Positions 1 to 50,207 of a DNA stretch of 64,000 bases are shown here, piece after piece. Below the pieces are notes generated by a model, which was given only the letters and a program-made list of their open reading frames with translations, was not told the origin of the DNA and did not search any database. Each line of letters begins with the position of its first letter. Position 1 is the first letter of the stretch. Location of the stretch: the NCBI RefSeq assembly GCF_009914755.1, contig NC_060946.1, one strand, 5' to 3'. Source of the stretch: the human T2T-CHM13v2.0 reference genome, Homo sapiens. The position numbers and the translations under genes were made by a program.

Positions 1-2310
1 GCAGTTCCAAACTTATTCCATGAAGCCACCATTAGCTCATACCGAAGCCAGACAAAGATACTACAAAAACCCATAGACTAATATCCCTTATGAACACGGA
101 TGCAAAACTAGTCAGCAACATCCTAGCTAACTACATTCAGCAGCATACTAGCAAGATTACAACCCATGACCAAGGGGAGTTTATTATTGGAATGAAAGGA
201 AGTTTTAGCATATGGGTGGTTTCAGTGCAGTGGTGTTTACAAATAATTGATCACAACCAGTATAGATTTCTTTATTCTTTTTCCAGTCTCACTGGTTCAC
301 TTAGCTAGCCTTTCTTAACAAAAGTTTAAGCATATGAAAATTAATCAATGCATATGCCACATTGACAAAATTTTTAAAAAGTATTCTCTCATTAATACAG
401 ATAACATATTTTACAAAATTCAAAATATTTTATAATAAAAACAATAAATTAGGAATAAAAGGAAACTAGCTTTGTAAAATTCACATATAAAAACCCACAG
501 CAAACAACATATTCCAGAGGAAAAGATCAAAAGTGTTTCCTCTAAGCTCCGAAGACAGAGTGAATATCTGCTCTTGCCAGCCACTTTTATTCAACACTGT
601 ATTAGAAGTTTCATTCAGAGAAATTAAAAAAGACAATGAAATAAACTGCATCAAAGTGTGTACAGAAAATATATTCTTATATGTAGAAAATCTTTAAGAT
701 TCCACACAAAAAATATTACAACTAATAAATTCAGCTGAATAGTAGCATACAAAATCAACATACAAAAACAAACTGCATTTTATGTAGTAACATGAATAAT
801 CTGAGAAGAAAACTCTGAAAACAATTCAATTTACAATAGTATCAAAAGAATAAAGTAGTTAGGAAGTAACGAAGAAGTAAAATGCCAATTACTCTTGTGT
901 AGATATTAAAAAATCAATTTTTAAGTTTATGGGGAATCTCAAAGATCTTTAAATTGCAAAAATAATTTTGAAAAAAATACCAAAGTTAGACAAGTCACAC
1001 TTAATGATTTCAAGACTTACTACAAAATTCCAAAATAGCATGCTACAAAGAGACTAATGGAGTAATATAGAAGGCCCATATAAATAAACCCTCATATATA
1101 AGGTCAAATGATTTTTATGGGAAATGAACTGCCTTTACAACAATTAGTGCTGGGGAAATTGGGTGCCCACATGTAAAAGAGTGAAGCTGGGCCCTTAACT
1201 TCTACTATAAGAAAAAATTAACTAACTGGATCAAAGACCTAAATGTAAGAGCTAAAACTACAAAATTCTTAGTATAAAATGTAGGTAAAACACGTCATAA
1301 GGCTGGATTTGGCAGTGATTTCTTTTAACAGGACACCAAAAACGCAAGAAACAAAAGAAAAATAGATAAAGAGGACTCTATCCAGAATATACAAAGAACA
1401 ATTCAGCAATAATAAACTACTTGTTTAAAATATGGGCAAAATACTTAAACAGATATTTCTCTAAAAATTATGTGAAGTGGCTTATAAGCCCATGAAAAGG
1501 TACTCAACAAAACCTTTTCATTTTCATTAGTAAAATGAAAATCTAACCCCAAATGACATATCACTTAATGCACATCAGCATAACTAGTACAAAAAGAAAA
1601 AAAAACAGAAAATCACAAGTGTTGGTGAGGAAGTGGAGCAGTTAGAACCCTTGTACACTTGGTGGAAATGTAAAATGCTGCAGCTGCTATAAAACAACAC
1701 CATAGTAACGAAATAATTTACACTCAAAATCACCGTATGATCCAGCAATTTCACATCTTGGTATGTTGCAAAAGATGTGAAAGCGAAGACACAAAATAAT
1801 ACACGTACACCTAAGCTCATAGCAGCATGACTCACATCACTCAAAAGGTTTTTGAATTACCTGTGTTGTTTGAATTATCATCAATGAATAAATAGATAAA
1901 ATGTGATTTATACATACAGTGGGATATTATTCAGTTATGAAAAATAAGGAAATTCTGACACATGGTACGTCATGCATGAACCTTAAGGACATTGTGCAAA
2001 GTGACATGAGCCAGTCATAAAAGGACAAATACTGTATCATTCCACTTATGAGATACTTAGAGTAGTTAAATTCTGGAAACCCACGTAGAAGAGTGGTTCC
2101 TAGGAGCTGGAGGGGGAGTAACAGGGAGCTGTTATTTAATGTGTATTGAATTTTGGTTTGGAAGTTGAAAAAAGATCCTTATGAATGGGAATAATAGTTG
2201 CAAAACAATGTGAGTGTAGTTAATTTCTCTGAGCTGAACACTTAAAATAGTTAAGATGGTTAATTTTATGTATACTTTGCCAAAATGTAAAAAATATTTT
2301 TTAAATAAAC
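1..2310 (+). mobile_element. Old LINE-1 (L1M/L1MB-like) ORF2 remnants and 3' end, degenerate
   Basis: ORF 90..308 begins [19 protein letters not shown], matching L1 RT 'MNIDAKILNKILANRIQQH'. An L1M-type 3' end lies at ~1900-2300 (ggaaattctgacacatg...aaggacaaatactgtatcattccacttatgag). Many stops. Confidence 0.85.
214..313 (+). pseudogene. Y3 RNA retropseudogene inserted in L1
   Basis: gggtggtttcagtgcagtggtgtttacaaataattgatcacaaccag...cacttagctagccttt follows the hY3 sequence (GGCTGGTCCGAGTGCAGTGGTGTTTACAACTAATTGATCACAACCAG...CACTTGACTAGCCTTT). 14-bp TSD aagttttagcatat (200-213) / aagtttaagcatat (322-335). Confidence 0.92.
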
Positions 2311-2901
2311 AAACTATAGCTATCTGCAATAGCATGAATTAATATCATAAATATAAAGTTGCCTAGAAGAAAGTAGATGTAAAAGTATACATATTATATA
2401 ATTTCACTTATATAAAATCCAGAAAGTGAACACAACTGAGGTTCTGGTTTCCAGTAATAATGAAGTAGACTAGTTCGTTGAATAACTATTTCACAGATAA
2501 CAATAATAAAGCTTAATAAAATACTATATTTTGCTATATAGAAAGGCACACTGTTTAGAAGACTGAATGAAGATTTTATCTATGCCACTGTGGAAGAGAT
2601 AAGGATTGGGGTTTGAATCTATTCAAATTAACTCTCTCTTAAAATAATAATTTTCAAAGAAATACAACAGAATCCAGAGTCCCTGTAGTTCCTATCACAC
2701 AATTTAAAAATTCATGAGATGTGTGAAGAAGCATGAAAGTGTAATCGATTCACAAGATAAAAAGCAGACAATAGAACCTATTCTCAAGATGTGCAAGATG
2801 CTGTAATCAGTAGATAAGATTTGAAAGAAGCTATGGTAAGTACGTTCATGGGGGTAAAAGAAAACAGTCTCATGACAAGTGAACAGAAGCGTAACTGTAC
2901 A

Positions 2902-3354
2902 TTTCATGCGCGTCCGTGTGAAGAGACCACCAAACAGGCTGTGTGTGAGCAACATGGCTGTTTATTTCACCTGGGTGCACGCGGGCTGCGTCCGAAAAGA
3001 GAGTCAGCGAAGGGAGATAAGGGTGGAGCCGTTTTATAGGATTTGGGTAGGTAAAGGAAAATTACAGTCAAAGGGGGTTTGTTCTCTGGCGGGCAGGAGT
3101 GGGGGTCGCAAGATGCTCAGTGGGGGTGCTTTTTGAGCCAGGATGAGCCAGGAAAAGGACTCTCACAAGATAATGTCATCAGTTAAGGCAAGGACCGGCC
3201 ATTTACACTTCTTTTGTGGTGGAATGTCATCAGTTAAGGTGGGGCAGGGCATATTCACTTATTTTGTGATTCTTCAGTTACTTCAGGCCATCTGGGCGTA
3301 TACGTGCAAGTCACGGGGGATGCGATGGCTTGGCTTGGTCTCAGAGGCCTGACA
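2902..3354 (-). mobile_element. HERV-H solo LTR (LTR7), close to consensus
   Basis: Reverse complement runs TGTCAGGCCTCTGAG...CACACGGACGCGCATGAAA, with TATAAAA and AATAAA. 'taca' flanks both sides. Confidence 0.95.
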
Positions 3355-3390
3355 TACACTCCCAGTCTTTTGGTCACAGGGCTGTGGGAC

Positions 3391-4420
3391 TGAGGAGGGA
3401 AATTAAAGAAAAATAAAATTAAAAAGAAAGAGAAATAAATTTTCTTGTATTGGGCTGACTTGTCCCAGAGGCTTCAACAGGCACAGCCCAGAACCAGGAA
3501 TAGTCTTGATAATATTATCTAATGTGCTCTGGAGGTTCTCCCAACGCTCCCCCAACATCGGGAAAAGAAAAACAAATTTCCTTTTTTTACGGAATGAGTT
3601 TATAGATTCTTGTTCTCTGTAACTAGTGACTTCAAGTATTCTGTTTTATCTAAGAAGTACAATGTAAGTCATGAGAAGCCTGAGTAGGCTGAACTACAGC
3701 TGTTTGGGCACCATAGTGAGGGTTATAGGATAAGCCCATGCCCAGGGAAACCTAGAAAATGGACATGTGGGTTGCTTGGCAACGGTCATGTGCAATCCTG
3801 TCTGTCCTGCCTCTGTATCCCTGCTTTCACGCCACTGTAAACTTGCTTCAAGCTAGCCCACCACCTTTTGTGAAATGTGCATAAAAGTCAGGTTCTGTCT
3901 TTGTTCCGGGCCCAGTCTTTTTGATGTGAGTTAGCTTGTCCTCAGTTTCATGCGCGTCCGTGTGAAGAGACCACCAAACAGGCTTCGTGTAAGCAATAAA
4001 AGCTTTTAATCACCTGGGTGCAGGCAGGCTGAGTACGAAAAGAGAGTCAGCAAACGTAGATAGGGATGGGGCCATTTTATAGGATTTGGGTAGGTAAAGG
4101 AAAAAGGGGGATTGTTCTCTGGCGGGCAGGAGTGGGGGGGTCACAAGGTACTCAGTCGGGGAGCTTTTGAGCCAGGATGAGCCAGGAGAAGGAATTTCAC
4201 AAGACAATGTCATCAGTTAAGGCAGGAACAGGCCATTTTCACTTCTTTTGTGGTGGAATGTCATCAGTTAAAACAAGAACCGGCCATCTGGATGTGTACG
4301 TGCAGGTCACAGAAGGTACGATGGCTTAGCTTAGGCTCAGAGGCCTGACACTGAGTGCACTCAATAAAAATTCTCCTGTTTCAACCCGGGGTCTCTCTCA
4401 TCCTCCTGAATCCCGCAACG
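3391..4420 (+). mobile_element. ERV1 solo LTR (LTR6-like), inserted in a 139-bp satellite unit and interrupted by an LTR7
   Basis: Starts tgaggagggaaattaaagaaaaataaaattaaaaag and ends aataaaaattctcctg...tcccgcaacg. Flanks ggac/ggag. Satellite sequence lies on both sides (3355-3390 and 4425 onward). Confidence 0.75.
3946..4350 (-). mobile_element. Second HERV-H solo LTR (LTR7-family, shorter variant) nested in the LTR6-like element
   Basis: Same termini as 2902-3354 (tttcatgcgcgtccg...aggcctgaca), with ATTAAA polyA signal. 5-bp TSD ctcag/ctgag. Confidence 0.93.
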
Positions 4421-7310
4421 GGAGAATTCCAGCATGCACCAGGTTCACGGGACAGTGCGCGGTCACTGAAAGAAGAGGGGGGCGGGGAGGGTGGTGTGCG
4501 GCTGTGAGCACCTCTTGTGCTTGCTGGGAGATGTAGTCTTATAAAGACTCCCAGCCCTTTGGTCACAGGGCTGCAGCACCCCAATTCCAGCATACACCGG
4601 AATCAGAGACAGTGCGCGCTGGCAGAGGAAGAGGTAGAGCTGTGCGTGACTCGCTGGGCTTGATGGAAAATGTAATCTCATGAACACTCCTTAATGAACA
4701 GTGCGCCTCACTGGAGGAAAAGGCGGGGCTGTGCAGGCCTTGCTTTGCTTGCTGAGAGATGCTGTCTCATAAACACTCCCAGCCCTTTGGTCACAGGGCT
4801 GCAGGACTACATTCCCATCATGCACCGGGATCAGGGATAGTGCATGTGCCTGGGTGAAGAGACACAGTTTTGCGAGCCTCCTTTGGCTTCCTGGGAGATG
4901 TAGTTTCATAAAGACACCCAGACTTTTCATTACAGGGCAGCCGGACTACAATCCCAGTATGCACCAAGATCAAGGATAGTGCGCGTAACTGCAGAATGAG
5001 GCGGCATTGTGCACGCCTCGCTGGACTTGGTGGGATATGTATTCTCATAAACATACCCAACCCTTTGGTCATAGGGCGGGAAGACTACAATCCCAGCATG
5101 CACCTGGCTAAGAGACAGTGCCTGTCACTGGAGGAAGAGGCGGAAGACTACAATCCCAGCCAGCACCGGGCTCAGGGAAATTGTGCGTCAGTGGAGGAAG
5201 AGGCGGGGTTGTGTGCTACTCGCCAGGCTTGCTGGGAGTTGTATTCTCATAAAACCTCCCAGCCCTTTCATCACAGGGCTGAAGGACTACACTTCCAGCC
5301 CCAGCATGCACTGGGCTCAGGGACAGCGCGCGTCACTGGAGGAAGAGGGAGGGCTTTGCGCTTCTAGCTGTGATTTTTTGGGAGATGTAGTCTCATTAAC
5401 GCTCCCAGCCCTTTGGTCACAGAGATCCAGGACTGCAATCCCAACATGCACCCAGCTCAGGGATAGTGCGCTAATCACTGCAGGAAGAGGCAGGGCTGTG
5501 TGCACCTCCTGGGCGTACTGGGAGATGTATTCTCATAAACACTCCCATCCCTTTGGTCATAAGGCTGCAGGACTACAATCCTAGCATGCACCCAGCTCAG
5601 TGACAGTGCGCTAGTCTAAGGAGAAAGAGGCAGGGCAGTGTGCGCCTTGCTGGGCTTCCTGGGAGATGTAGTCCCATGGCGTCTCCCTGCCCTATGGTCA
5701 CAGTGCTATAAGACTACAATCCCAGCATGCACGGGGCTCAGGGAGAGTCCACATCACTGCAGAAAGAGGGGCAGGTTGTGCGCACCTCGCTGCGTTTGCT
5801 GGGAGATGTTGTTTCATAAAGACTCTCAGACCTTTTGTCACAGGGCTACAGGACTACAATCCCAGGATGCATCGGGATCAAAGCAGTATGCGACACGGGG
5901 AAAAGATGCGGAGCTGTGTGCGTCTCCCTAGGTCTTCTGGGAGATGTGGTCTCTTGGCCCTTTGGTCACAGGGCTGCAGGACTACAATGCCAGCATGCAG
6001 CGGGTTCATGGACAGTGTGTATCACTGGAGGAAGACGTGGAGCTGTGCGTGCCTCGCTGGGCTTGCAGGGAGATGCAGTCTCATAACTACCCCAGTCGTT
6101 TGGTCGCAGGGCTGCAGCAGTACAATTTCAGCATATCTTTGGCTCAGGGAGAGTGCACTAGTCACTGAAGGAAGAGGTAGGTCTGTGCGCACCTCTCTGG
6201 GCTTGCTGGGAGAGGTAGTCTCATAAACACTACCAGCCCTTTCATCACATCGCTGTAGGACTACAATTCCAGCATGCACGGGGCGCCGGGGCAGTCCGCC
6301 TCACTAGAGGAAGAGAAAGGCGTGTGAGCGCCTTGCTGGGCTTTCTGGGAGATGTTGTCTCTTTATTTCTCCCAGCCCTTTGGTCACAGGGCTTCAAGAC
6401 TACAATCCCAGCATGCATCCTGCTCAGGGACAACGCGCGTCACTGTAGGAAGAGGTGGACCTGTGCTGTTCTCGCTATGCTTTTTGGGATACGTATTCTC
6501 GTAAACACTCCCAGCCCTTTGGTCACTGGGCTGCATCACTACAATCCCAGCATACATCGGGATCAGGGAGAGTGCGCTAATCAGTGGAGAAAGGGGCGAG
6601 GCTCTGCACACCTCGCTGGTCTTGCTGGGAGATGCAGTCTCATAAACACTCCCAGCCCTTTGGTCACTGGGCTGCAGCGCTACAATCCTAGCATGGACCG
6701 GGCGCAGGGAATGTGCGCGTCACTGGAGGAAGAGGCAGGGTTGTGCAAGCCTCTCTGGGCTTGGTGGGAGTTGCAGTCTCATAAACACTCCCAGACCTCT
6801 CATCACCGGGCTGCAGGACTACAATCCCAGCATGCACCCGGCTCAGGGAGAGTGCGCATTACTGGAGGAAAAGTCTAGGCTGTGGATGCCTCCTTCTGCT
6901 TGCTGGGAGATGTAGTTTCATAAAGACTCCCAGAACTTGTGTCACAGGGCTGCAGGACTACCATCCCATTATGCACTGGGGTCAGGGACACGGCCCGTCA
7001 GTGGAGAAAGAGGCGGGGCTGTGTGCGTCTCCTTCGGCTTGCTGGGAGATGTATTCTTATAAACACTCCCAGCCCTTTGGTCAAAGGGCTACAGGACTAC
7101 AATCCCAGCATGTGCCAGTCTCGGGGGCGAGGTACAGGCCTGGAAGAAGGGGCAGAGTGGTACACGCCCCACCTAATATGCTGGGAGCTGTAGTCTGTTA
7201 ACTGCTCTCAGCCTGTTTGTCGGTGGGCTTCAGAACTATAATCACAGCATGTACCGGGACCCGGGGTGCATAGCCCTGGAGGGAGGGGCAGAGCGGTGTG
7301 GACTTCCCGG
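4421..7310 (+). repeat. 139-bp GC-rich tandem satellite, ~20-21 units (ACRO138-like)
   Basis: GACTACAATCCCAGCATGCAC recurs at ~139-bp spacing (e.g. ~4805, 4944, 5083 ... 6816, 6955, 7094). By-eye consensus: ggactacaatcccagcatgcaccgggctcagggacagtgcgcgtcactggaggaagaggcggggctgtgcgcgcctcgctgggcttgctgggagatgtagtctcataaacactcccagccctttggtcacagggctgca. Confidence 0.93.
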
Positions 7311-8099
7311 TGTCCAAAGCACTGCTGAGTTCTTATGCTATGCCGACTCTTTGCCAAGGAGAATGAGTACATAGGTGGACCTAGAGGACAGGTCTGCGCT
7401 GAGCATTGAGGAGGGTATTACCCTACATAGGCACCTTACCTTTGCCCAAATCGGGCGGGTTGTCCTCAACTGATTGGCCCTATCCTTCTCAAGTTCCTCT
7501 TTCAGCTGCACCCAGGGTTCTTTCCAGAGCATTGCGCCTTCTGCAGCCCAGGGCGCTGCCTTCTTTCCTAAACTGCTGTGGAAACTGTCCTGATGTCTGA
7601 GACACTGTCCATTGTGCCGCAGCCCTCTTTTTTCTCTAGCCAAGCCTCATGCTCAACAGCTTTTGAGAGAAATCTTCCACGTGGCCTGCTTATGAACAGC
7701 TTCAGAATTCTGTAGGGGGTGACAAGGTCTGTGGCTTCCTGGAAATGTCACTCTCAATGGCGCCTTTTTCACGAATGTGAAAGTTGAGGCATCAGGAAGG
7801 TTAATTATTGGGTTGCACAAAATCTGCTAAGAGCAAAGGAGAAAACCTCATTTCCGAGGCATGAGTCTTGTGAGCCATTTTCATCAACCCATTTAAGTGG
7901 ACAAGCTCCAAAATGAAACCTGAAGCTGCTGACTATTTAGGCATTTTACACTTGAAATCATCGGTCTCATCTCAAGTCACTCCTGACTTGCCAGTGTCTC
8001 AGAAACACAAATGGGACCGGATCCCTCAGGAGCAGATAGTGTTCCAGCTTTGTTGGAGCGACATTTAAGATGTGGAGCACTTGGGGTCGTTTGAAACCC

Positions 8100-11000
8100 G
8101 CTATCTTCAGTAGGGACTTTTACTTCTAGAGAACATGTGCATTTTGATTTTATCTGTCCTCAAACTGAACTTTTGCTCATTTTAATAGTAAAAACACATT
8201 CCTAGGTGGAGACTTAAGATGCTAATGAGACATGCAATGTATGCACAAATATGTACAGTTAGTGCACATGTGCACCCAGAAGACCACTCAAAACATGCTT
8301 ACACTAACACTTCTTTCCACCTTCTTATGAATAATCGTGCAAAACCCCCAGAAGGAGGGTTTCTCCAGTAACAATTAATGGTGTCTCACTCTTATGAGCA
8401 GCCTGCCCTGGAATCTCTTTCTCAGAATGTACCGTCTATTCTGCACTTAATTTTCAAAGTAGTCTTTTCTTTTTTTGTGTGCAATAAATTACTCTATGCT
8501 GTACTTCTTTTGCTGTGTGTTTCTTGTTTAAATTCTTTTAAACTAAGAAAATAAGAATCAAGGTATTACATCAGCCATCAACATTTCTTTTGCCATGGCC
8601 TGGAGAGAGGTCTGTCCGCTTCACTGATTTCACTTTCCCTTTACTTGCCGTGAATACTGTGGCACTTCCAGACTACCTGGTTAACTATCGCTGGTTCTTC
8701 CAGCACTGTTTCACTAAAGTTCTGGGGAAACCCTGTCCCTTTAGGCTTTATGCATTTCCCAGCTCCTTGAAATTGTTCTTCAACAGGCTTTCTTTGCTGA
8801 ACAAAAGATGCACAGTCATGGATATGCCCAGTCATAGGGATTGAATCTGAGCATTGCAGGTGTTATAATTGGGCATCATAAATGGCAAACCACTGAATTA
8901 GGGAAAGGCTTGTCAGCCAGACATCTGCTCCCCAGCGAGCAGTGGGGGTCATCTCGGCAGGGCTGGAGATGTCCAGCGCTGGTGAGAGCTAGGACGGTGC
9001 ATGGCAAATGCCTATGACCTCCTAGAGCTTCAGTTAATGGGGTTTCAAGGGGATGAGTTGGACAACTTGGTGGTTCCACTTGGCTCATGGGGCTGCCCAC
9101 AGCCTCCTGGACTTTAGTACATGTTCTGTCGTTTGCAGGATTCTCTTGGCACCATGGGAATCACTTCCTCTACTGTCACTGAAACACACCTGGGATGTAT
9201 ATTTAAAAATTGAAACAGCTTTTGGCTAAATGAAGCAAAAAAACAATTATCTTCTTTTGTAAAACTATTTAGCCTGCATACAGATTAGCTGACAAAACAT
9301 GGCTGGAGAATGAGACTGTGAAATTTAACACCATCATACAGCTAGATCTTTTCTGTAGTAATCAGGGAAAATGGTCTGAAGTATCCTATGTGCAAGACTT
9401 TCTGGCCCGACAACAAAACCCAGCTCTATGCAGCACCTGTGGGCTAAAGCCTAGTAAGCCACAAAGCCCCTCAGAACCATTAGAAGATCATTTGTTTTAT
9501 GGGCAAGGGACTCCAGACCCCACAGCCTAATACCAGCTCCAGATAGGGGCCCTCAGAGGCCTACACCTGCTTTAGAATCCCCAGCGTCCCCACACTATCA
9601 GAGTCTTCTGTAGAATCTAAGCTTGTTTAACCTCCTCCTTATGCTCCTCTATCAGCCTTGCCAGTTACAATAGAGACCAGTCCAGCTGCAGTTACTCACA
9701 GTGGAGCTTCACACCATGCAGGGCCAGAGAATTTGATCCGCTTACAGAAAGTCTCAAATGGAGAGAGGACCATCAGAGTGCTTCTTCTCTTCCCAGTAAA
9801 TGATCTAATCCAATGTAAGCAACAGCTCTGATGGCTCTCAGACAACTTCAGCGCGTTTACTGAAGCCTTCCAGTCTCTAACTTTGACCACCATTCAACTT
9901 TACCATCCATAAACGGACCCAATGACTGCTGCCAACTCAGCTGCACAAAACTTTTTCTTATTTGCGAAAAATAGAAAAGACTTAAAACTTTTGCTGCTTT
10001 CACCATTTTAAAGCAGAATACTTTTGCAGCACAAATGTCACCATAAGGTGGATCCTTGGGAATCCAGTATAAACTATCTCAGAAAATCTCAGTGTGTCCC
10101 CAACAGGCAGCAGAGGGCCTCAATAGACTTCAACAACATCTGGACTCCATGGCCACTGCATTCCAACAAAATCAAAGAGCCTGGGATCTTCTCCCAGCCA
10201 AGCAAAGAGGAACATGTTTATATCTAAAAGAAGAATGCTGTTTTTTGAGATCAATCATTCTGGTTTATTCCAAGAAAATATTAATAATATCATCACCCAG
10301 GCAGACAAAATTGAATCTCTAGGAACTTCCATGGGAACATGAAAGCGATGTCCATTGCCTGCCTTGCTCTCTTTAATAGTACCCGTCATTATTATATTTT
10401 CAACTTCTACTTTTGTTCCAATTTTGTTTAAAATGTTAACTGATTTCCTGCTATGTTGCTTGTGGCAGCTCCATGTTTGCATGATGGTTTGCAAGGCTTT
10501 CAATCTTTGGCTGCCAACATCTTCCCACTGGTTCCACGAACGACATGGTTTACACCCTGTTAGATCACACAGGAAGAAACTTTAAGGCCCAGGCTAGGCA
10601 GAAGTAACACCCACTCAGCAGGAAACAGCTCCAGAAAAAGTGGTCTAACCCCTCAACCTCCAATATGGTTATTGCCCTAAAATCTCTTAGGGGGAAATTG
10701 AGGCAGAATAGATAGTACAGAAAATGACCATGATCTCAGGATACAGAAACCATGGTGACTGTACAGCCAAAACAATAAGCCTTAGCATTCGCATTGTAAT
10801 TGGGCTTATTCGAGCAAAGCTATCCTCATTAAGGACTTTCTGTTCTAGAGAGCATGTGTATTTTGATTTTACCTGCCCTCAAACTTAAATTTTGCTTATT
10901 TTAATAGCAAACAATGCACCCCCTAGCCAGGCACGGTGGCTTATACCTCTACTCTCAGCACTTTGGGAGGCTGAGGAAGATGGATCACTTCAAACTAGAA

Positions 11001-11601: not shown

Positions 11602-14600
11602 CAGCAATAAGTCAGCCTCCTTCTTGTAAGCATAGCCCATGCAGAAAAGGAGAGTCGCATCACCTCGGTGCTGGATCCAGAGGTATGTCACAATTTATCC
11701 CATGCACAAAGTTAAGGTCATTGAGGAGAGTCATATTAAATAATTTCTGGGCCCAGGGATTTGTCACAACAGCTCCTGTGAGAAGAGATCAGGCAGCATA
11801 ATCACATAACCGGTGTGCTGGACACAGCGATAAGCCACCTTTCATCTGTGGGCATGACCCAGGCAAGAAAGAAGAGTCACGGCATTTAGGTGCTTGCTGC
11901 AGAGGTACGTAACAATCTCTCTTATGGGCAAAGCTCAGGTAAGAGAGAAGAGTCAAATCTCCAAGGTGATTCATGTAGAAATTTGTCACAAGAGACTTTT
12001 TAGGCAGGGCCCATGTTGGATCTTCTTATCTTCCAGAAGTTAGGTACAGGGATATGTCAGAATACCCAAAATACACAGGGCTCAGTCAATAAAGAAGAGC
12101 CACATCACCCAGGTGCTGGGTCTAGACATATGTCACATCTCTTTTATGGGGAAAGCTCAGGTAAAAAAGGAAGGTCATATCAAATAGTTGATAGACCCAG
12201 AGATATGTCACATTGCCTCCTGCTTGAAGTGTCTAGGCCAAAGACTCACATCACATTGGTGCTAGGCCTGTGTTCATATATAAACATTCAACCAGAGTTG
12301 AAATGGTGGCTCGTTTCTAAACCCAGCTTATAGGCAAGGGATGAGTCTCCTATCCTGACATAGTTAATTGTAATGATGTTGACTCTCATCCCTGGGCTTA
12401 ATGTTACAAGTATGATCATGGGTCCCTACCATTAGGAAGGTCTCAAAGTTGATTACGACTCTCATTCATACAGTATAGGGCCATTGGGTAGTACACAGAG
12501 CGTGCTAACTGGGCCGAGCACACAGGTGAGATTGTGACACTCATATGCATACCCAGGCAACAGTAACTATTGTCATCCTCTCACGGGAACACAAGTCAGT
12601 CTGCAGAGGAATTGAGGCTCTCATGCGCAAATCCAGTCTGGTGTTGAGATGGTTATTCGTGGGCTTAGACCCAACATACAGGAGGTGTTGAATGTCATGC
12701 CTACCACTGAGACAGCTGTGTGATTGTTAATCTAATTCCTGGACCATTCTGCAGCTTCCATTGTCAAATTTCCCAGTGCCTAGCACCTAAGTGACTTGAC
12801 GGGCTCGCATGGACCCAGCCCACAGATGGGATATTAACATATTGCTGGATCCAGCACATTGAGGATGTAACTCTATTCTCCTTCGTTGGCACTGCCCACA
12901 GTGAGCAGTTTGACATATCGCTAGACCTTACACCCAGGTGATGTGAGTCTCCTCTTCTGCCTTGGCGCTGCCCTCAGGAAGCGTTGTTATATATAGCTTG
13001 GCCTCGCATCCAGGTTATGTGACTCTCCGGCTTGTGCACTGCCCATATGGGACACTGTGTTAATATTGCTGGGTCCACTACTCAGGTGATGTAACCCAAC
13101 TGCCTGGGCCCTGCCTTACAGGGGCATTGTGACATATCTCTGTGCTCATCAGCCAGGTGATGTGATTCTCTTCTCCTGCCTGGTCCCTTTACACAGAAGG
13201 GATTGTGACACGTTGCTGGGCTTAGCACCAAGTTGATGTTGATGTGAATCTTCTGCCTGGATCGAGTTCACAGAAGGCATCGTGACATACCTCTGGGTAC
13301 ATCACCTATTTGATGAGACTCTCCTCTCTTACCTGAGCATTGCCCATAAGAGAGATTGTGACATATCCCTGGGTCTAGCACTGGGATGATGTGAATTCTC
13401 TCTGCCTGGGTCATGCCCACAGAAGGAAGTGTGACTTATAACTGGGAACAGCACAGGGGTGATGTGATTCTTCTGCCTGGTCCCTACGTACAGGAGTCAT
13501 TGTCAAATGCCTCTGGGCCCATCATCTAGACTATGTGACTCTCTACTTCTTCCTAGGGCCTGCTCACATAAGGATTGTGACATATTACATGCCCTACATC
13601 ATGTGACTTTTCTCTCATGTCTGGGCTCCGTCTTGGAGATGAATGTGACACATACCTAGGCCTGTTCCCTAGGTTCTGTAACTTCTCGTTTTTCAAAATC
13701 CTACCCACCAGGGGCATTGAAACATCTCTGTGGGCACTTCACTTAGGTAATGTTACCCTGTTGCCTGGAGCCTCCCCTCTGGGGGGTATGGTGACATATT
13801 GCTGGACACAGTACCTATGTGATATTCTCTCCTTTCTTGCCTGGGCCTTGTATACATTATGTATTCTAATATACGGCTGGGTTTAATGACTAGGTGATGC
13901 AACTCTTATGCATAGACCCTACCCGCAGGGACATTATGACATTTCTTTAGCTCTGACTCTCCTCTTTTTCCTTAGCCCTGCCAAAAAGGGAGGTGGTGAC
14001 ATATAACTGGACCTAGAAACCAGCTAATATGAGTCTCCTCTTTTGCCTGCACCCAGCATATTTTAGGTGTTGTATCATATCCTTTGTCTCAACACCTGCA
14101 GGATGAAAGGCTCCTGCCTGAGCCCAGCCATCTGTCAAAATTGTTTCTCCCACACGAACATGGACCATAATTGAGGTTCTGAAACTCACACCCAGAGGCA
14201 GTCAAAAGTTGGAAAATTGGCTCTTAAAAGTGGATATTGTCTGCCAGTGGGTTTGTGACTCCCTGACCAAGATCCAAAACACTTGTGAGGCTGTGAGTCC
14301 ACTAAGATAACTCCGTTTTCAAAAGGGATTAAGGCTCTCATGGAAAAAACCCATTCCTCCATTGAGATTGTGACTTATGCACATAGATACAACGTACAGG
14401 AGGCGTTCACTCTCATACCCAGAACCGGAACTTATGTGGGATTGTTAATCTCATCCATGGACCTTCCTGCAGGTGTGATTCTGACATACACCTCTAGCCA
14501 GCACCTGAGTGATTTGACATTTTTGCCTGGGTGTAGCCCACAGATGAGATTGTGATATATCTCTGAATCCAGCATCTAATTAATATGCTTCTATTCTCCT

Positions 14601-16352
14601 GTCTTGGCACTGCCCATAATGGGTATCCTGACCTAACACTGGTCCTGGCACTTTGTTATGTGACTCTGTCCTGTGCTTTGCCCACACGAGCCATTGTGAC
14701 ATATTGCTGGGTCCAACACCCAGGTGATGTAACTCTTGTCTAGACTTTGCCTACAGGGGGCATAGTGACATATCTCTACACTGACCACCCAGGTGATGGG
14801 ACTCACTTCTCCTGACTGCTACCTGTTTATAGCAGGGATTGTTACAAATCGTTGCGGGCAGACTCTAGGTAATGTGACTGTCTTTTTACAGAGCGCTACC
14901 CACAGGAGCCATTGCAAAATATCTGTGGGCCTCTCACTCTTTGCCTGGGCTCATTTCTCAGGGGTATTGTGACATATGGCTGACCTCAGCACCGAGGTGA
15001 ACTGAGTTTCTTCTACTGTAGGGCTCTGACCAAAGAGAGATTACAATGTATCACCGGGCCCAGCACCTGAGCTATTTGACTCTCCGCTCTTGGCTGCACC
15101 CTACATTTATTGTGTATTGTGATATATCACTGGGTCCAACACGTAGGTAATGTGACTCACCTGCATGGGCCATTTCCCCATGGGTACTATGAAGTATCTT
15201 TTTGTTCATCACTTAGGTGATGCAACTCTCCTCTTTGCCTTGGGCCCCACATAATTTAGCTATTGTGATATATCACTGGGCCAATCACCTAGTCAATAGG
15301 AAGCTTCTGCCAAGACCCTGACTACTGAGGGCCTTGTGACATAGCTCTGCATTTATCACCTAGAAAATATGATCCCCCCCCATTTCTGCCTGAACCCTGC
15401 TCACAAGAAAAATTGTAGCATACTTCTGGGCCCAGCAAACAGGTGATGTGTTTCACCTGCCTGTGCTTAGTTCACAGGGAAAATTGTGACATATCACTGG
15501 GCCCAGAACCCAGGTGAGGTGACTCTGCTGCATGTGTCGTGCTTTCAGGAGAGAACAAGAACATATCCCTGGCAGAACTCTTAGGGATGTGACTCTCTTG
15601 CCTTGTCCCTGTCCTCAGGGAAGACTGCAACATGTCCCTGACACAGACCCAGGTGATGAGACTCTCCTGCTTCTGACTACCCAAATGTGAGATTGTCACA
15701 TATATTTTGGCCTAGCATGTAGGTGTGATGATGACATTCATACCTTAAACCAACCAATAGCAGAGATTCTTTCTCTCACAGCCAGGCTTAACAAAACTTG
15801 CAAAATTATGGGTCTTCTCTTACTATGAAGGTCAGAGAAAGTAAGCACTCTTGCATATCCTATAAAGCACTCAGATGGTACAGTGTCATCACAGGGCCCA
15901 GAACACAGGTGAGATTGTGTTCTCTGTGTGCACACCCACCAATCATCAGAATTGTCATTCCTACACAGGAACAGAGGTGATTAGGGAGGTCTAAACCTCA
16001 TACCTGAATGCCGTCCACAGCTGGAATTGTAACTATCACATGTGAACATCCAGTCACAGTTGGGATAGTGACTTATTTCTGAACCCAGTTTACAGCCAAG
16101 TAAAGATCCTCTTATCTGGATCCAGCCAGCTGGAGAGATGTTGACTCTCATACCTGGACTTATGGCCACAGGTATGATCATAGGTTCATATCAGCATGAA
16201 GACCTCAGAGTGGATTATGTTTAATGCATACTCTACAAGTTCCACAGGAGGTACATAGTGTCCTAACAGGGCCCAGCAAACAGGTGAGATTCTAACACTC
16301 ATGCACACTCTGGTGACAATAAAAGTTACCATCCTCAAAAATGGGCACAACC

Positions 16353-16980
16353 GGCATGGCTCAGTGGCTCACGCCTGTAATCGCAGCACTTTGGGAAGCC
16401 GAGGCGGACAGATCATGAGATCAGGAGATCAAGACCATCCTGACCAACATGGTGAAACCACGTCTCTCTACTATTTATGATTATGATTATGATTATGATT
16501 ATGATTATGATTATTATTTTGAGACAGAATCTTGCTCTGTCACCCAGACTGGAGTGCAGTGGCACCATCTAGGCTTACTGCAACATCCGCCTCCCTGGTT
16601 CAAACAATTCTCTTGTTTCAGCTTCCCGAGTAGCAGGGACTACAGGCTCATGCCACCATTCCCAGCTAATTTTTGTATTTTTAGTGGAGACGGGGTTTCA
16701 CCATATTAATTAGGCTGGTCTCAAACTCCTGACCTCAGGTGATCCACCCACCTCGACCTCCCAAAGTGCTGGGATTACAGGCATGGGACACTGTGCCTGG
16801 CCACCCCATCTCTACTAAAAATACAAAAATTAGCTGAGCGTCGTGGCACGTACCTGGAATCCCAGCTACTCGGGAAGCTGAGGCAAGAGAGTTGCTTGAA
16901 CCCAGGAGGCAGAGGTTGCAGAGAGCCGAGATCGCCCCACTGCACTCCAGCCTGGCGATAGAGTGAGACTCCGTCTCAAG
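16353..16980 (+). mobile_element. AluS split by a nested antisense Alu (16474-16802)
   Basis: Left arm 16353-16473, antisense Alu with (TTATGA)n tail, then right arm 16803-16980. Duplicated target accacgtctctctacta/accccatctctacta. Confidence 0.93.
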
Positions 16981-16985
16981 GGACC

Positions 16986-16989
16986 AAAA

Positions 16990-17050
<61 letters not shown>

Positions 17051-17052
17051 AG

Positions 17053-17084
<32 letters not shown>

Positions 17085-17284
17085 AAGAAAGAAAGGAAGG
17101 AAGGAAGGAAGGAAGGAAGGAAGGAAAAGAAAGAAAGAGAAAGAAAGAAAGGAAAAGAAAGAATTAAAGAAGAAAGAAAGAGAAAGAAAGAAGAAAGAAA
17201 GAAGAAAGAAGGAAGGAAGAAAGAAAGAAAGAAAAAGAAAGAAAGAAAAAAGAAAGAAAGAAGAAAGAAGAAAGAAAGAAAGAA

Positions 17285-17336
<52 letters not shown>

Positions 17337-17340
17337 GAAA
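16986..17340 (+). repeat. (GAAA)n/(GGAA)n polypurine tract, ~350 bp, expanded from the Alu tail
   Basis: Almost purely A/G on the + strand. Confidence 0.97.
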
Positions 17341-20300
17341 ATTGACTCTCATATATGGATCTTGTCCACAGGTAGGTGGGTGACTCTCAAACCAAAATTC
17401 ATTACATCTGTGAGACTGTAACTCTCCTAAGGGGAGAAGTTCTTCTCAGCCAGAGAAGACTCATTTATGAATCCAGTTCACTGTTGAGATTGGGACTGTT
17501 GTACCTAGGCCAAACATACAAATTCTCATACCTGGAATCCGGACATGTGTGGAGTTGTTCATCTCATCCCTGTCGCTTTCTGCAGGTGGGATTGTGACAT
17601 ACATCTCTGCCCAGCTCCTGAGTGTTTTAGCTCTGTTTCCTGTGTCCAGCTCACAGATGGGATTCTGATATATCACTGAAGCCAGCACCTAGATGATGTG
17701 ACTCTTATCTCCTGCCTTGGTGCTGCCCACAGGGGACATTGGGACATATCACTTGGCCTTGCACCTAGGTAATGTATGTTTTCTGTCTTGCATTAGTGCT
17801 ACTCACAGGGGTGTTGTGATGTATTGCTGGGTCCCACATCCATGTTATGTGACTCTTCTGCCTGTGCCCAGTCCACAATGGCCATTTTGACATATTGTTG
17901 CATCCAAAACCTAGATGATTTACCTCTCCTTCTTGAGCTTTGCCTAAGGGGACATTGTGAAATATCTATGAGCCCATCACCCATGTGGTGTGATTTTCTT
18001 CTCCTGCCTAGTCCCTGCTTAAATAAAGGATTGTGACATATCACTGTTCCCAACACCTAGCTCATGTTACTCTTCTTTTGTTTTTTAGGATTTGTTTGGA
18101 AGGAGATTGTGATACATTGGTGGGTCCAACTTCTCGGTGACATTACTCTGTTGACTTTGCTCTGCAAGCAGAAAGCACTGTGACACATTATTGGGCCCAA
18201 CACCAAGGTGAGTCTCCTGCCTGAAGCCTGCCTACAGCAATTTGTAACATATGGCATTGGGACATATCTCTGAGCCCATCAACTATTTGACAAGATTCTC
18301 CTTTTTTAACAAAGGCTTTGCCCATAGGAGAGATTGTGACATAATTCTGAGCCCAGAAAATAGGGGATATTTCTTTTGTTTTCTGCTTGAGCCCCACATT
18401 GTGATGTATTTCTCCTCCCAACAACTGAGGGAAGGGAAAGTCCTGCCTGGGTCTTGCCTACAGGGAGCCTTGTGAAATCTTTCCGCGTTCATCACCTTAA
18501 ATATGTGACCCTCATCTTCTGCCGTGGCCATGTTTACAGAAGGGAGAGTGGGTTATTCCTAGACCCAGCACACAGGTCATGTGATTCTGCAACCTGGTGT
18601 CTCCAGAGGGGTCATTTTGACATATCTCTAGACTCATCAACTAGATAATGTAATGCTCCTCTTCCCCCTGAAACCTATCCATAGTGGAGATTGTGAAATA
18701 CAGCCTGGCACAGCACCTACATGATGGTACTCTCTTCTCATGCTTGGGTGCTGCCCACAGGGGTGATTGAAACTTATAGCTGGGTACAGTCTTCAGGTGA
18801 TGTAACTCTCCTCTATTTTTGGGCCCACACACACAGGGCACTACCATATAGCTCTGCTCCTCAGACCTAGGTGATGTGACTCTGCTGTCTGTTACCTCCT
18901 CTTAGGGGGAATTGTGATATATTGCTGGGCCCAGAACCGAGGTGATGTGGCCTTTTCTCTTGCCTGGGCCCTGCATACATGGTGTACAGTAACATATATC
19001 TGGGTTGAACACATAGGTGATGTGACTCTTCTGCATAGGTCTTGCCAACAGGGGTATTATGACATACTCTTCTATTCATTGCCTAGGCGATGTGACTCTC
19101 CACTCTTACCTGGGCCCTTCCAAAAGAGGGGATTGTGACATATCACTGACCCTAACACCAAGGTAATGTGACTGTTCTCTTTTGCCTGGGTTTGCATATT
19201 TTGGGTATTGTGACATATCCCTGGGCCCAACACTTAGGGAATAAGAGGTTTATTCCTCTACCTTACGTGCAGTGAAGCTTGTGACATATTTCTGCATTCA
19301 TCACCAAGAAGATGTGACTCTTCTGCCTGCATCCTGACCACAGAGAGGATTGTGAAATATTGCTAGATCCAGCATGCAGGTGATGTGTCTCTGCTGCCTG
19401 GTTCCTAATGTGAGGAGTGGATTGCAACATACCAATGCCTGAACATTCAGGTAATGTGACTGTTGCCTGGTCCCTGTCCTCAGGGAAGCGACATATCACT
19501 GGCCCAGCGTCCAACTGATTTTACTCTCCTGCTCTCTTCCTATATGCAGGTGTAATTGTGACATATATCTTGGAACACAACACACAGGTGCAATGATGAC
19601 ATTCATATGTCACACCAGCCAATAGAAGAGATACTGCTTCTCCTAGCTACACTTAGGGAAATGAAAAAAAACCCTGGGTCTCCTCGCTAAGATCATCCAC
19701 TCTCTCATATATTACAGAAAGCCCTCGGGTAGTAGAGAGTCTTATCACAGGGCCCAGCACACAGGTGAAATTTGTTACTCCTATGCGCACCCTGCACCCT
19801 CCTGACCATTATGATTTTCATCCTCACATATAAACAGAACCCACTGGTGAGGTCCTGAATTTCACACATGAATGCAGTTTATAGTTGGAATTGCGAATCT
19901 CATATGTAAAGATCTGGCCACAGTTGGAATGGGAACTTCGTTATAAACCCAGCGCATAGAAAGCTGATGATTCTCTTATCTGGACCCCGCCAATTGTAAA
20001 GATGTTGACTCATATATAGGCTTAGGGCCACAGGTTTGATCATGGGTCCATACCAGCATGAAAATCTCTGAAAGAATTGAGACTGTCATGCATACAACAT
20101 AAAGCCGTCAGGTGCAACACAGAAAGTCCTAATAGGGCTCAGCACACAGTAATATAATGACATTGGGATGCACACCCAGCCAACATTAAAGATTGTCGTT
20201 CTTTCACATGATCATAGTTCACTTTTGAGGCTCTGAATCCCATACCCAAAGGCAGATTGAAAAGTTGAAAAATTGACTCTCGTATTTGAGAGTCACAGAT

Positions 20301-23300: not shown

Positions 23301-24055
23301 CACATGATGTGACTCTCCTCTTTTGCCTGGGCCCTGCATATTTTGTATATTGTGACATACTGCTGGGCATAATACCTAGGGAATTGATGGCTACTGCCTG
23401 AGCCCTGTTCACAGGGGGCCTTGTGACATCTCTCTGCTTTCACCACCTAGAAAATGTGTGTGCACCCTGCCTACGAAGAAGATTGTAGCAGATCACTTGT
23501 CTTAGCAACCAAGTGATGCGAGTCTCCTGTCCTGCCTTGGTGCTGCTCACAGGGGACATTATAACATATACTTGGTGCTGGCCCCATGTTTTGTAATTTT
23601 TCTGCCAGGGGTCTACCATATAAGCTATATTGCTGGGTCCAACACCCAGGTTATGCAGCTCTCCTTTCCGTGCTCTGCCTACAGGGGACATTGTGACTTA
23701 TCTCTGCACCCATCACTCAGGTGATGTGACTTGCTTCTGCTGACTGATTCCTGTTCAAGTGGACATTGTGACATATCAATGGGGGCACCATCTAGCTGAT
23801 GTAACTATTCTCTTCTGCCTAGGTTCTTCCTGCAGTGGAAATTGTGATGTATCACTGGGCTTAACACCAAAGTGACATTAATTTTTTGCCTTGGTTCTTC
23901 CCTCAGAAGACATTGTAATATATTGCTGGGCTCAGCACCAAAACGATGTGGATTTCCTGTCTGGACCCTGCATACAGGAGTCCCTGTGACATATCTCTTG
24001 ACTCATCAACTATTTGATGTGACTCTCCTCTGTTCCCTGAGCTTTGCCTATAGGA

Positions 24056-49319: not shown

Positions 49320-50095
49320 ACGAGTCCACACCGCCCTGTCCCTCCCTCCAGGGCTGCGCACCACGGGGGAGGACAGACAGCGCATGCTGGTTTTGTAGTT
49401 AGCAGGTCGGCGACCAATGGGCTGGAAACCGTTAAGACACCATAACTCCCAGCACTCCTAGCTAGGGACGCGCCTCCCTATCCTTCGCTTCCATACTGCA
49501 CACCGCCCCCAAACCCAGCGCATGCTGAGATTGTAGTCCGTTAGCCTCGCGACCAATGGGCTGGAAATACTGAAAGGACTATGACTCCCAGCATGCCTTG
49601 CGAGGTACCCGCCGTCCCGATCCTTCCTCTAGGGCTGCGCACCGCCCCCAAGCCCAACGCATGCTGGGATTGTAGTCAGGTAGTCCTGGGACCAACTGAC
49701 TGGAAACTGTTAAGAGACCATAACTCCCAGCACGCCTGGCTAAGGACGCACCTCCCTATCCTTCCCTTCAGTGCTACACACCGCCTCGAAGCCCGGTGGC
49801 TGCTGGGATTGTAGTCTGCAGGCCGGGGGCCATCGCTGGAAACCGTTAAGAGACCATAACTCCCAGCATCCCTGGCCAGGGACGCGCCTCTCTATCCTTC
49901 CCTCCAGCGTTACACACCGCCCCAATCCCGGTGCATGCTGGCATTGTAGTTCGGTAGCCTTGCGATCAACGTGCTGGAAACCGTTTAAGGACTATGACTC
50001 CCAGGACGCCTTGCGAGGGACCCACCCTGTTGACCCTTCCTCCAGGGCTGGGAACCTCCCCTAAGCCCAGCGCATGCTGGGATCATAGTCCGACT
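49320..50095 (-). repeat. Inverted, diverged ~6-unit copy of the 139-bp satellite
   Basis: gcatgctg(g/a)...tgtagt at 49382, 49520, 49659, 49798, 49933 and 50072 (spacing 138, 139, 139, 135, 139). The reverse complement aligns to the 4421-7310 unit. Confidence 0.92.
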
Positions 50096-50121: not shown

Positions 50122-50207
50122 TCTGAGACTACAGTTCCAACACTACGGGGAAAATTTCATCTTCTCTGAGACTACAGTTCCAACACTGCGGGGATAATTT
50201 CATCTTC
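50122..50207 (+). repeat. 43-bp direct tandem duplication (2 copies)
   Basis: tctgagactacagttccaacact(a/g)cgggga(a/t)aatttcatcttc at 50122 and 50165. Confidence 0.95.

What the first reader, a model, noticed from the sequence alone, without database searches (positions are those of the whole stretch)
4421..7310. Satellite whose unit carries two opposed ZNF143/THAP11-type motifs plus a GC box
Seen: each 139-bp unit has GACTACAATCCCAGCATGCAC on +, GACTACATCTCCCAGCAAGC on - (written gcttgctgggagatgtagtc) and GGCGGGGC between them, giving roughly 40 motif copies in 2.9 kb. Established: ACTACAnnTCCCAG is the ZNF143 (SBS2)/THAP11-HCF1 promoter motif. The minus-strand copy has canonical spacing; the plus-strand copy is 1 nt short. 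Inference: a promoter element multimerised into a satellite could act as a high-avidity binding platform keeping an open island inside beta-satellite/L1 heterochromatin, or as a factor sink when multiplied over several chromosomes.
Basis: partly seen in the sequence, partly recalled or inferred. Interest (0 to 1): 0.7.

Follow-up and report, generated by a model that had tools for sequence, protein, structure and literature searches.

The report
ACRO138: an amplified ZNF143-site promoter repeat
This is the known ACRO138 repeat beside the human ribosomal-DNA arrays, already reported as open, transcribed chromatin; its 139-base unit is a roughly twenty-fold copy of one piece of a dispersed, likely promoter module with two facing ZNF143-type sites, which likely bind ZNF143 and likely help keep the repeat open.

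Summary
The array is real: window 4425-7308, 22 units of 139 bp, 72% identical to each other. By period, position and its inverted twin 158.5 kb away it is ACRO138 of the rDNA distal junction, published in 2013 as open and transcribed.

Each unit has two facing ZNF143-type sites: a canonical SBS2 on the minus strand and an SBS1 on the plus strand whose ACTACA is shifted by one base. Many copies are decayed: 10 of 22 plus cores and 6 of 22 minus M4 motifs are intact. The GC box is exact in only 2 of 22 and is among the most variable parts of the unit.

Not found in my literature searches: the array is a burst amplification of one unit of a 2-3-unit, CpG-rich module with relatives at 19p12, 7q11 and 16p11 and 43 kb away in the same window. 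Its CpGs have decayed less than those of the flanks (50 of 76 kept against 25 of 75).

Motif cores are more conserved than the rest of the unit but not more than the flanks, so selection is unproven. A factor sink is numerically implausible. ZNF143 binding was not testable here; public degron data can test it.

The parts
4425..7308 (+). ACRO138 array, DJ ~138-kb block: 22 units of 139 bp (about 20 of one amplified type, plus two older terminal units at 7094-7232 and 7233-7308)
   Evidence: position
5713..5736 (+). Example plus-strand site: ACTACA directly followed by an 18-bp SBS1-type site (one base closer than in SBS2); core intact in 10 of 22 units
   Evidence: definitions
4513..4537 (-). 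Example minus-strand site: canonical 25-bp SBS2/M4 spacing; its core reads AAGC instead of ATGC in 13 of 22 units; M4 intact in 6 of 22
7012..7019 (+). One of only two exact GC boxes (the other at 4722-4729); poorly conserved
7309..8100 (+). 3' flank of the ancestral module, shared with relatives on chr19, 7, 16, 9, X, 3, 4, 10, 20. A splice-donor-like GTGAGT is seen at the position of 7363-7368 in arm 2 and most relatives (ATGAGT here)
3350..3384 (+). Orphan fragment of a unit, cut off from the array by an intervening element (about 3385-4420) that arm 2 shares
2898..3354 (-). Arm-1-only insertion, LTR-like (recalled as LTR7/HERV-H type; not tested against a repeat library)
   Evidence: masked in the NCBI file
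3941..4350 (-). Second arm-1-only insertion, 89% identical (358 of 402) to the first
49407..50090 (-). Second, independently expanded 5-unit copy of the same module (CpG o/e 0.66), about 94 kb from the rDNA junction, inside predicted lncRNA LOC124905548

Best explanation
The array is ACRO138, an old tandem amplification of one 139-bp unit of a dispersed, likely promoter module, and the surviving ZNF143-type sites likely bind ZNF143/ZNF76 (with THAP11-HCF1 likely competing at the canonical minus-strand sites), which would start short transcripts in both directions and likely help keep the block open and under-methylated. SHOWN here: the unit anatomy; about 20 units form one clade with the distal unit of the 19p12 modules; the units were not homogenised after the two DJ arms split; the block was spread to all five acrocentrics at 99-100% identity; CpG decay is lower than in the flanks. 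SHOWN in print: open chromatin and transcription at ACRO138. INFERRED: that the ancestral module is a promoter with a first exon, that ZNF143 binds the array, and that this binding causes the open state. The array likely works as a cluster of weak, partly decayed promoters (enhancer-RNA-like), not as a sink.
For: Identity: two blocks 158.5 kb apart, inverted, on all five acrocentrics, against 138 and 290-297 kb in PMC3847771. Sites: the plus site matches the published SBS1 probe at 14/18 and the minus site is a full SBS2 at 12/18; ZNF143 tolerates a degenerate 29-mer around TGGGA. Origin: the 3' flank has 42 genome matches; the unit tree joins the array with the 19p12 distal unit (100/98) and the terminal unit with the 19p12 middle unit (97/86). 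Relatives are CpG-rich (o/e 0.47-0.72 in 16 of 20 older loci; the four others have lost most or all units), and two 7q11 relatives carry a perfect canonical SBS2. Methylation history: CpG kept in both arms in 50 of 76 sites in the array vs 25 of 75 in the flanks, Fisher p=9e-5. Arm 2 lacks the two LTR-like insertions yet is reported open, which points to the array itself. Plus-site cores differ between arms at 12 of 280 positions vs 167 of 1869 in the rest of the unit, p=0.007. ZNF143 sits a median 38 bp from start sites and has a residence time over 20 min.
Against: No binding, footprint or methylation data could be examined. The plus-site rate (12 observed) is not significantly below the flank rate (17.4 expected, p=0.11), and the minus site is no better than the rest (23 of 276). 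Across 21 family members the penultimate plus site beats the rest of the unit (p=0.004) but not the flank (p=0.12); the minus site and the last plus site beat neither. The full 24/25-mer masks were not significant (p=0.09 and 0.27), and 12 masks were tried. More than half of the sites are decayed. Only 10% (479 of 4684) of ZNF143 peaks lose accessibility on acute depletion. The array's CpG o/e is 0.41, below a CpG-island level. Four chr16 relatives have lost the plus site.
Confidence: 0.55

Rival explanations
1. Neutral relic. A promoter piece was amplified by unequal exchange long ago and is decaying. Any open chromatin comes from GC/CpG content or other factors, and ZNF143 binding, if any, is incidental.
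For: Motif cores change no more slowly than the flanks. The tree is star-like with no homogenisation. More than half of the sites are broken. Non-motif positions change faster than the flanks (167 vs 121.6 expected). Short copies elsewhere appear to have lost most units by deletion (inferred).
Against: CpGs are retained about twice as often as in the flanks. Both blocks are open across cell types. The plus site has about half the substitution rate of the rest of the unit.
Confidence: 0.27
2. A different factor is the main reader: THAP11-HCF1, RBPJ or Ikaros (all use TCCCA/TGGGA or ACTACA half-sites), or a KRAB zinc-finger protein that reads the family-specific short-spacer motif.
For: THAP11 and RBPJ bind overlapping sites, each exclusively of ZNF143. 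The upstream core RRACTAYR alone held THAP11/HCF-1 in pull-downs, and the plus site has that core. The short-spacer 19-mer is almost private to this family: 65 of 65 exact genome matches lie in family loci.
Against: In vivo THAP11 was restricted to canonical SBS2 loci, and only 6 of 22 are intact here. The plus site keeps the 3' ATGCACC tail typical of the ZNF143 site.
Confidence: 0.13
3. Factor sink. The multiplied sites titrate ZNF143 or THAP11 away from genes.
For: The blocks are present on all five acrocentrics, and ZNF143 binds very stably.
Against: At most 10 chromosomes x 48 units x 2 = 960 positions, about a third of them intact in the two large blocks, against ~75,000 molecules per cell in mouse ES cells and 4,684 ordinary peaks. 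That is at most about 1.3% of the pool. THAP11 abundance was not looked up.
Confidence: 0.03
4. The open state of this block is imposed by the two adjacent LTR-like insertions.
For: Two LTR-like elements lie within 1.5 kb of the array's left end; LTR7 is recalled as a stem-cell promoter.
Against: They are absent from arm 2, whose block is also reported open, in several cell types (cross-mapping between arms is not excluded).
Confidence: 0.02

Closest known systems
ACRO138 (Floutsakou et al. 2013, PMC3847771; McStay 2016, PMC4973289)
   Same: 138/139-bp tandem repeat, two blocks in the arms of the DJ inverted repeat, ~138 and ~297 kb from rDNA; reported open and giving short, possibly eRNA-like transcripts.
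   Different: The passages read name no binding factor, motif or origin. The paper's supplement with the repeat sequence could not be read. A third, diverged 5-unit block at ~94 kb and the non-acrocentric relatives are not in the passages read.
ZNF143 SBS1/SBS2 and THAP11 TBS/M4 promoter elements (PMC3627581, PMC5006282)
   Same: The minus site has canonical ACTACANNTCCCA spacing; the plus site is a 14/18 match to the SBS1 probe; opposed sites as in bidirectional promoters.
   Different: About 40 positions in tandem rather than one or a few; the plus site has ACTACA shifted by one base, a variant nearly private to this family; most minus cores read AAGC.
HSat3 as a transcription-factor platform (bioRxiv 10.1101/2024.10.22.616524)
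   Same: A satellite on acrocentric arms whose unit encodes a factor's motif.
   Different: Megabase scale and a simple pentamer, holding a large share of all TEAD motifs. ACRO138 is 3 kb, derives from a complex module and cannot hold a large share of ZNF143. ZNF143 and THAP11 do not occur in that text.
MLT1J retroelements carrying SBS2 (PMC3627581)
   Same: A repeat family that spreads ZNF143/THAP11 sites.
   Different: Dispersed by retrotransposition as single sites. This module appears to have spread by segmental duplication plus local tandem expansion (inferred from kilobases of shared flank). Descent from MLT1J was not tested.

Membership tests
ACRO138 | Tandem repeat of about 138 bp | tested here: met
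   Period 139
ACRO138 | Two blocks in the DJ inverted-repeat arms at ~138 and ~290-297 kb | tested here: met
   Inverted twin 158.5 kb away. The array lies 144.0-146.9 kb from the first 18S; subtracting ~3.7 kb of 5'ETS (recalled) and ~4 kb gives ~136-139 kb; the twin gives ~295-298 kb
ACRO138 | Shared by all five acrocentric chromosomes | tested here: met
   99-100% identical copies on chr13, 14, 15, 21, 22
ACRO138 | Sequence identity to the published consensus | not testable with these tools
   Supplement not held
ACRO138 | Open chromatin and transcription | not testable with these tools
   Taken; only the CpG-decay proxy was tested
ZNF143 site (SBS1) | 18-bp site with TCCCA core and ATGC | tested here: met
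   Plus site 14/18 to the published probe, shuffle frequency 0.00015; intact in 10 of 22 units
ZNF143/THAP11 site (SBS2/M4) | ACTACA-N-SBS1 spacing, minus-strand site | tested here: met
   6 exact and 10 one-mismatch matches in the array
ZNF143/THAP11 site (SBS2/M4) | ACTACA-N-SBS1 spacing, plus-strand site | tested here: not met
   One base short in the array and in nearly all older relatives
ZNF143 site | Occupancy by ZNF143 in cells | not testable with these tools
   No ChIP or footprint data available; no position-weight matrix on hand, so no FIMO scan
ZNF143 site | Purifying selection on the site | tested here: inconclusive
   Better than the rest of the unit, not better than the flanks
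Sp1/KLF GC box | Conserved GGCGGGGC in the units | tested here: not met
   Exact in 2 of 22 (arm 1) and 3 of 21 (arm 2) units
Homogenised satellite (concerted evolution) | Units within an array more alike than orthologous units between arrays | tested here: not met
   Units 72% alike within the array; 20 of 22 have an orthologue in arm 2 at 86-94%
ACRO1 (147-bp satellite) | 147-nt unit | tested here: not met
   Period 139; listed as a separate family in PMC8997349

The most novel reading that the evidence does not exclude
ACRO138 is a ZNF143-bound 'promoter satellite': a promoter module from the KRAB zinc-finger-cluster duplications was multimerised next to rDNA, and stably bound ZNF143, a regulator of ribosomal-protein genes, holds both DJ arms open and transcribed inside perinucleolar heterochromatin, linking this factor to NOR organisation. 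The same module forms the ~94-kb DJ promoter and lies in or beside the DUX4 enhancer DME2 at 4q35.
Probability: 0.2. Interest if true: 0.75.

Novelty: new member of a known kind. Interest (0 to 1): 0.48.

Why it matters
The DJ is thought to anchor rDNA at the nucleolar edge, and why its ACRO138 blocks stay open and transcribed is not explained in the passages read. A named factor with public degron ChIP, ATAC and PRO-seq data (GSE266489-91) makes that question testable by re-mapping alone. The case also shows a satellite whose parent is still present as 2-3-unit modules elsewhere in the genome, so the steps from a short module to an array can be followed. If ZNF143 does not bind, the finding is a known repeat with a fossil motif.

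Tried and rejected
1. First conservation test. Local HMM hits clip unit ends, which inflated the conservation of the plus ACTACA (p=0.003). A wrap-around alignment removed most of this (p=0.07), so the values are not used.

2. 'Motifs are under selection'. The contrast with the rest of the unit disappears against flank rates. The rest of the unit runs fast, so selection is not claimed.

3. 'All ~45-kb-spaced DJ promoters are built from this module'. On chr13 and chr14, whose lists are complete, the short-spacer 19-mer (<=1 mismatch) occurs in the DJ only in the three blocks (28 of 128 matches on later chromosomes not listed). The exact canonical pattern has no DJ match among 47. Rejected at that sensitivity; the 187- and 238-kb regions were not read directly.

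4. 'Short arrays are intermediates of the expansion'. They join the left flank at the window-2513 equivalent directly to later units, while older relatives match out to ~2870, so they look like deletion products.

5. Factor sink: rejected on numbers.

6. Structured RNA. Rfam found nothing in the array; its only window match was a Y RNA at 214-314. The two sites are inverted repeats and can pair in a fold of the doubled majority unit (no shuffle control), which was not pursued.

7. Rows dropped. One search left out near-duplicate loci L005, L007, L008, L018, L019, L020, the unit-less L021, L024, L027 and L016. One search also dropped L012, L013 and L026 (orthologous unit replaced). One search left out 2 arm-1 units without an arm-2 partner. 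One search used 12 of 34 sources and units of more than 110 model positions.

8. The original DME paper was not held, so DME2 could not be placed exactly.

Full report
OBSERVATION. The window holds a 139-bp tandem array. A profile built from its units finds 22 units at 4425-7308. The 16 full-length units aligned are 72% identical pairwise and 83% identical to their majority. The majority unit carries a plus-strand ACTACA followed at once by an 18-bp site matching the published SBS1 probe at 14 of 18, and a minus-strand site with canonical SBS2 spacing matching at 12 of 18. The two sites face each other. Because the units share one origin, chance was measured on one unit: a 14/18 match arose in 0.015% of 20,000 shuffles and an ACTACANNTCCCA site in none. 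The array is decayed: plus cores are intact in 10 of 22 units, minus M4 motifs in 6 of 22, and the GC box in 2 of 22.

WHAT IT IS. A 421-bp probe gave 130 matches in the genome (31 of 31 candidates scored; a lower bound). These include 99-100% copies on all five acrocentrics and an inverted twin on each, 158.5 kb away on chr22. The first 18S gene starts at chr22:4,801,291. With ~3.7 kb of 5'ETS (recalled) and ~4 kb to the junction (PMC10097779, passages), the two blocks lie ~136-139 and ~295-298 kb into the distal junction. Floutsakou et al. (PMC3847771, passages) describe two blocks of a 138-bp repeat, ACRO138, with open-chromatin peaks at 138 and 290 kb, a putative promoter at 297 kb, and transcription confirmed at 138 kb. 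McStay (PMC4973289, passages) calls the transcripts possibly eRNA-like. The sequence itself could not be compared because the supplement was not held, so identity rests on period, position and symmetry (about 95% sure).

ORIGIN. The 800 bp after the array has 42 genome matches (40 of 45 candidates scored), at 71-91% identity outside the five identical copies, on chr19p12, 7q11, 16p11, 9, X, 3, 4, 10, 14, 20, 21 and 22 (band names inferred from coordinates). Of 20 older loci examined, 16 are CpG-rich upstream of this flank (o/e 0.47-0.72), and 15 of these 16 have unit matches, mostly 2-6 each; the other four have o/e 0.04-0.35 and have lost most or all units. In a tree of 70 units, about 20 array units form a star-like clade with the distal unit of the two 19p12 modules (100/98), the terminal array unit groups with their middle unit (97/86), and the five units of the window's second block (49407-50090) form their own clade (96/81). 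So one unit of a 2-3-unit module was amplified in a burst, and a second copy expanded separately 43 kb away. Twenty of 22 units have an orthologue in the other DJ arm at 86-94%: the expansion predates the arm duplication, and there has been no homogenisation since. The 4-7-unit copies on chr3, 4, 10, 14, 20, 21 and 22 look like deletion products of a longer array (inferred). That the module is a promoter is inferred from its CpG content, its ZNF143-type sites (perfect canonical SBS2 at two 7q11 relatives), a donor-like GTGAGT ~55 bp after the last unit in most relatives (not significantly conserved), and a chr16 relative in four near-identical copies whose minus site abuts a 121-codon ORF. I recall that ORF as TP53TG3; one search confirms only that this family is multicopy at 16p11.2. 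The short-spacer plus motif is nearly private to the family: all 65 exact matches are in family loci, and one of 35 listed one-mismatch hits lies outside the loci identified here; 28 were not listed.

CONSERVATION TESTS, FOR AND AGAINST. Against the majority unit, 28 non-CpG core columns are less diverged than the rest (0.089 vs 0.154, p=0.004 in arm 1; 0.099 vs 0.157, p=0.019 in arm 2; not independent; 12 masks tried). The full-length sites are not (p=0.09 and 0.27). Between arms, plus cores differ at 12 of 280 positions, minus cores at 23 of 276 and the rest at 167 of 1869 (plus vs rest p=0.007). Flank rates predict 17.4, 16.9 and 121.6 differences, so the plus site is not significantly slow (p=0.11) and the rest of the unit is fast. 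Across 21 family members the penultimate plus site beats the rest of the unit (p=0.004) but not the flank (p=0.12), and the other two sites beat neither. Selection on the sites is therefore not shown. CpGs are better kept: present in both arms at 50 of 76 sites in the array against 25 of 75 in four flanking stretches (p=9e-5). The array's o/e of 0.41 indicates partial, not full, protection; conversion between units could contribute.

MECHANISM. ACTACAN is not needed for ZNF143 binding (Kd 1.36 vs 1.58 nM), THAP11 in vivo is confined to SBS2 loci, and the two factors exclude each other (PMC3627581, passages). Pull-downs show the RRACTAYR core alone can hold THAP11/HCF-1 (PMC5006282, passages), so the effect of the one-base shift is open. 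ZNF143 binds a degenerate 29-mer around TGGGA and stimulates initiation, but maintains accessibility at only 479 of 4684 peaks (bioRxiv 2024.05.13.594008, passages). It sits a median 38 bp from start sites, favours same-strand transcripts, stays bound over 20 min and numbers ~75,000 per mouse ES cell (bioRxiv 2024.03.08.583987, passages). The most likely working model (0.55) is a cluster of weak promoters, where surviving sites are occupied and fire short transcripts both ways. Two LTR-like insertions beside this block are absent from arm 2, which is also reported open, so they are unlikely to be the cause. A sink is excluded on numbers (at most ~960 positions). A neutral relic remains a serious rival (0.27).

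NOVELTY. The repeat and its open state are known. I found no paper linking it to ZNF143/THAP11 or to this module. Searches: 'ACRO138' (6 papers, 5 listed; four read in passages); 'ZNF143 + distal junction' (0); 'ZNF143 + satellite + acrocentric + T2T' (3, 2 listed, listing only); 'ZNF143 + tandem repeat + nucleolar + rDNA + acrocentric' (2; one read in passages concerns the rDNA unit); 'ZNF143 + satellite + T2T-CHM13 + ChIP-seq + enriched' (2, 1 listed, listing only). The library lacks most subscription papers, and unread supplements may show motifs or ChIP tracks. The HSat3 platform preprint (passages) is the nearest concept. Verdict: observation partly confirmed; new member of a known kind; interest 0.48.

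Noticed in passing
L004:4563-5196 (chr4:193,417,562-193,418,195): A 5-unit copy of the module lies 10.9-11.5 kb centromeric of the published DME1 G-quadruplex oligo site. PMC13225712 puts DME1 ~4 kb and the 2.1-kb DME2 ~15 or ~19 kb from D4Z4, so the copy may overlap or abut the DUX4 enhancer DME2. Its two distal units are identical, a recent duplication.
   Followed up: partly
window 49407-50090 (-): Second, independently expanded 5-unit block with CpG o/e 0.66, ~94 kb into the DJ and on all five acrocentrics but without a close twin in the other arm. It fits the reported ~45-kb spacing of DJ promoter marks (inferred). A 43-bp duplication at 50122-50209 holds two further ACTACA-like half-sites.
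   Followed up: partly
L029:507-872 (chr16:34,354,606-34,354,971): A 121-codon ORF starts right after a near-perfect SBS2 of the module; four near-identical copies on chr16. Recalled as TP53TG3; the name was not confirmed by a tool.
   Followed up: partly
G000 chr11:64,260,902-64,261,311 and chr1:244,068,988-244,069,143: Other tandem clusters of exact canonical SBS2 motifs: six copies at 61-91-bp spacing, and two copies 137 bp apart. Possibly further promoter-derived tandem arrays.
   Followed up: no
G000 chr13:5,569,473; chr14:1,901,231; chr15:2,309,853: DME1-like sequence (2 mismatches) inside the DJ, ~60 kb distal of this array, suggesting shared ancestry of the DJ arm with the D4Z4-proximal duplication block.
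   Followed up: no
window 12759-24053: Highly diverged 70-76-bp repeat block (53-71% matches), unmasked in the NCBI file; recalled as resembling the complex beta-satellite/SATR-type blocks of zinc-finger clusters. Exons 2-4 of the predicted pseudogene LOC124908462 lie inside it.
   Followed up: partly
window 2898-3354 and 3941-4350: Two LTR-like insertions, 89% identical, present only in this DJ arm; the second sits inside an older element that splits the first unit of the array.
   Followed up: partly
window 214-314: Y RNA-like match just above the Rfam gathering score (42.2 vs 38 bits), probably a pseudogene.
   Followed up: no
L021, L024, L027 (chr9:132.51 Mb, chrX:51.81 Mb, chr9:21.45 Mb): Relatives that keep the 3' flank but have no unit matches and no CpG richness.
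   Followed up: no
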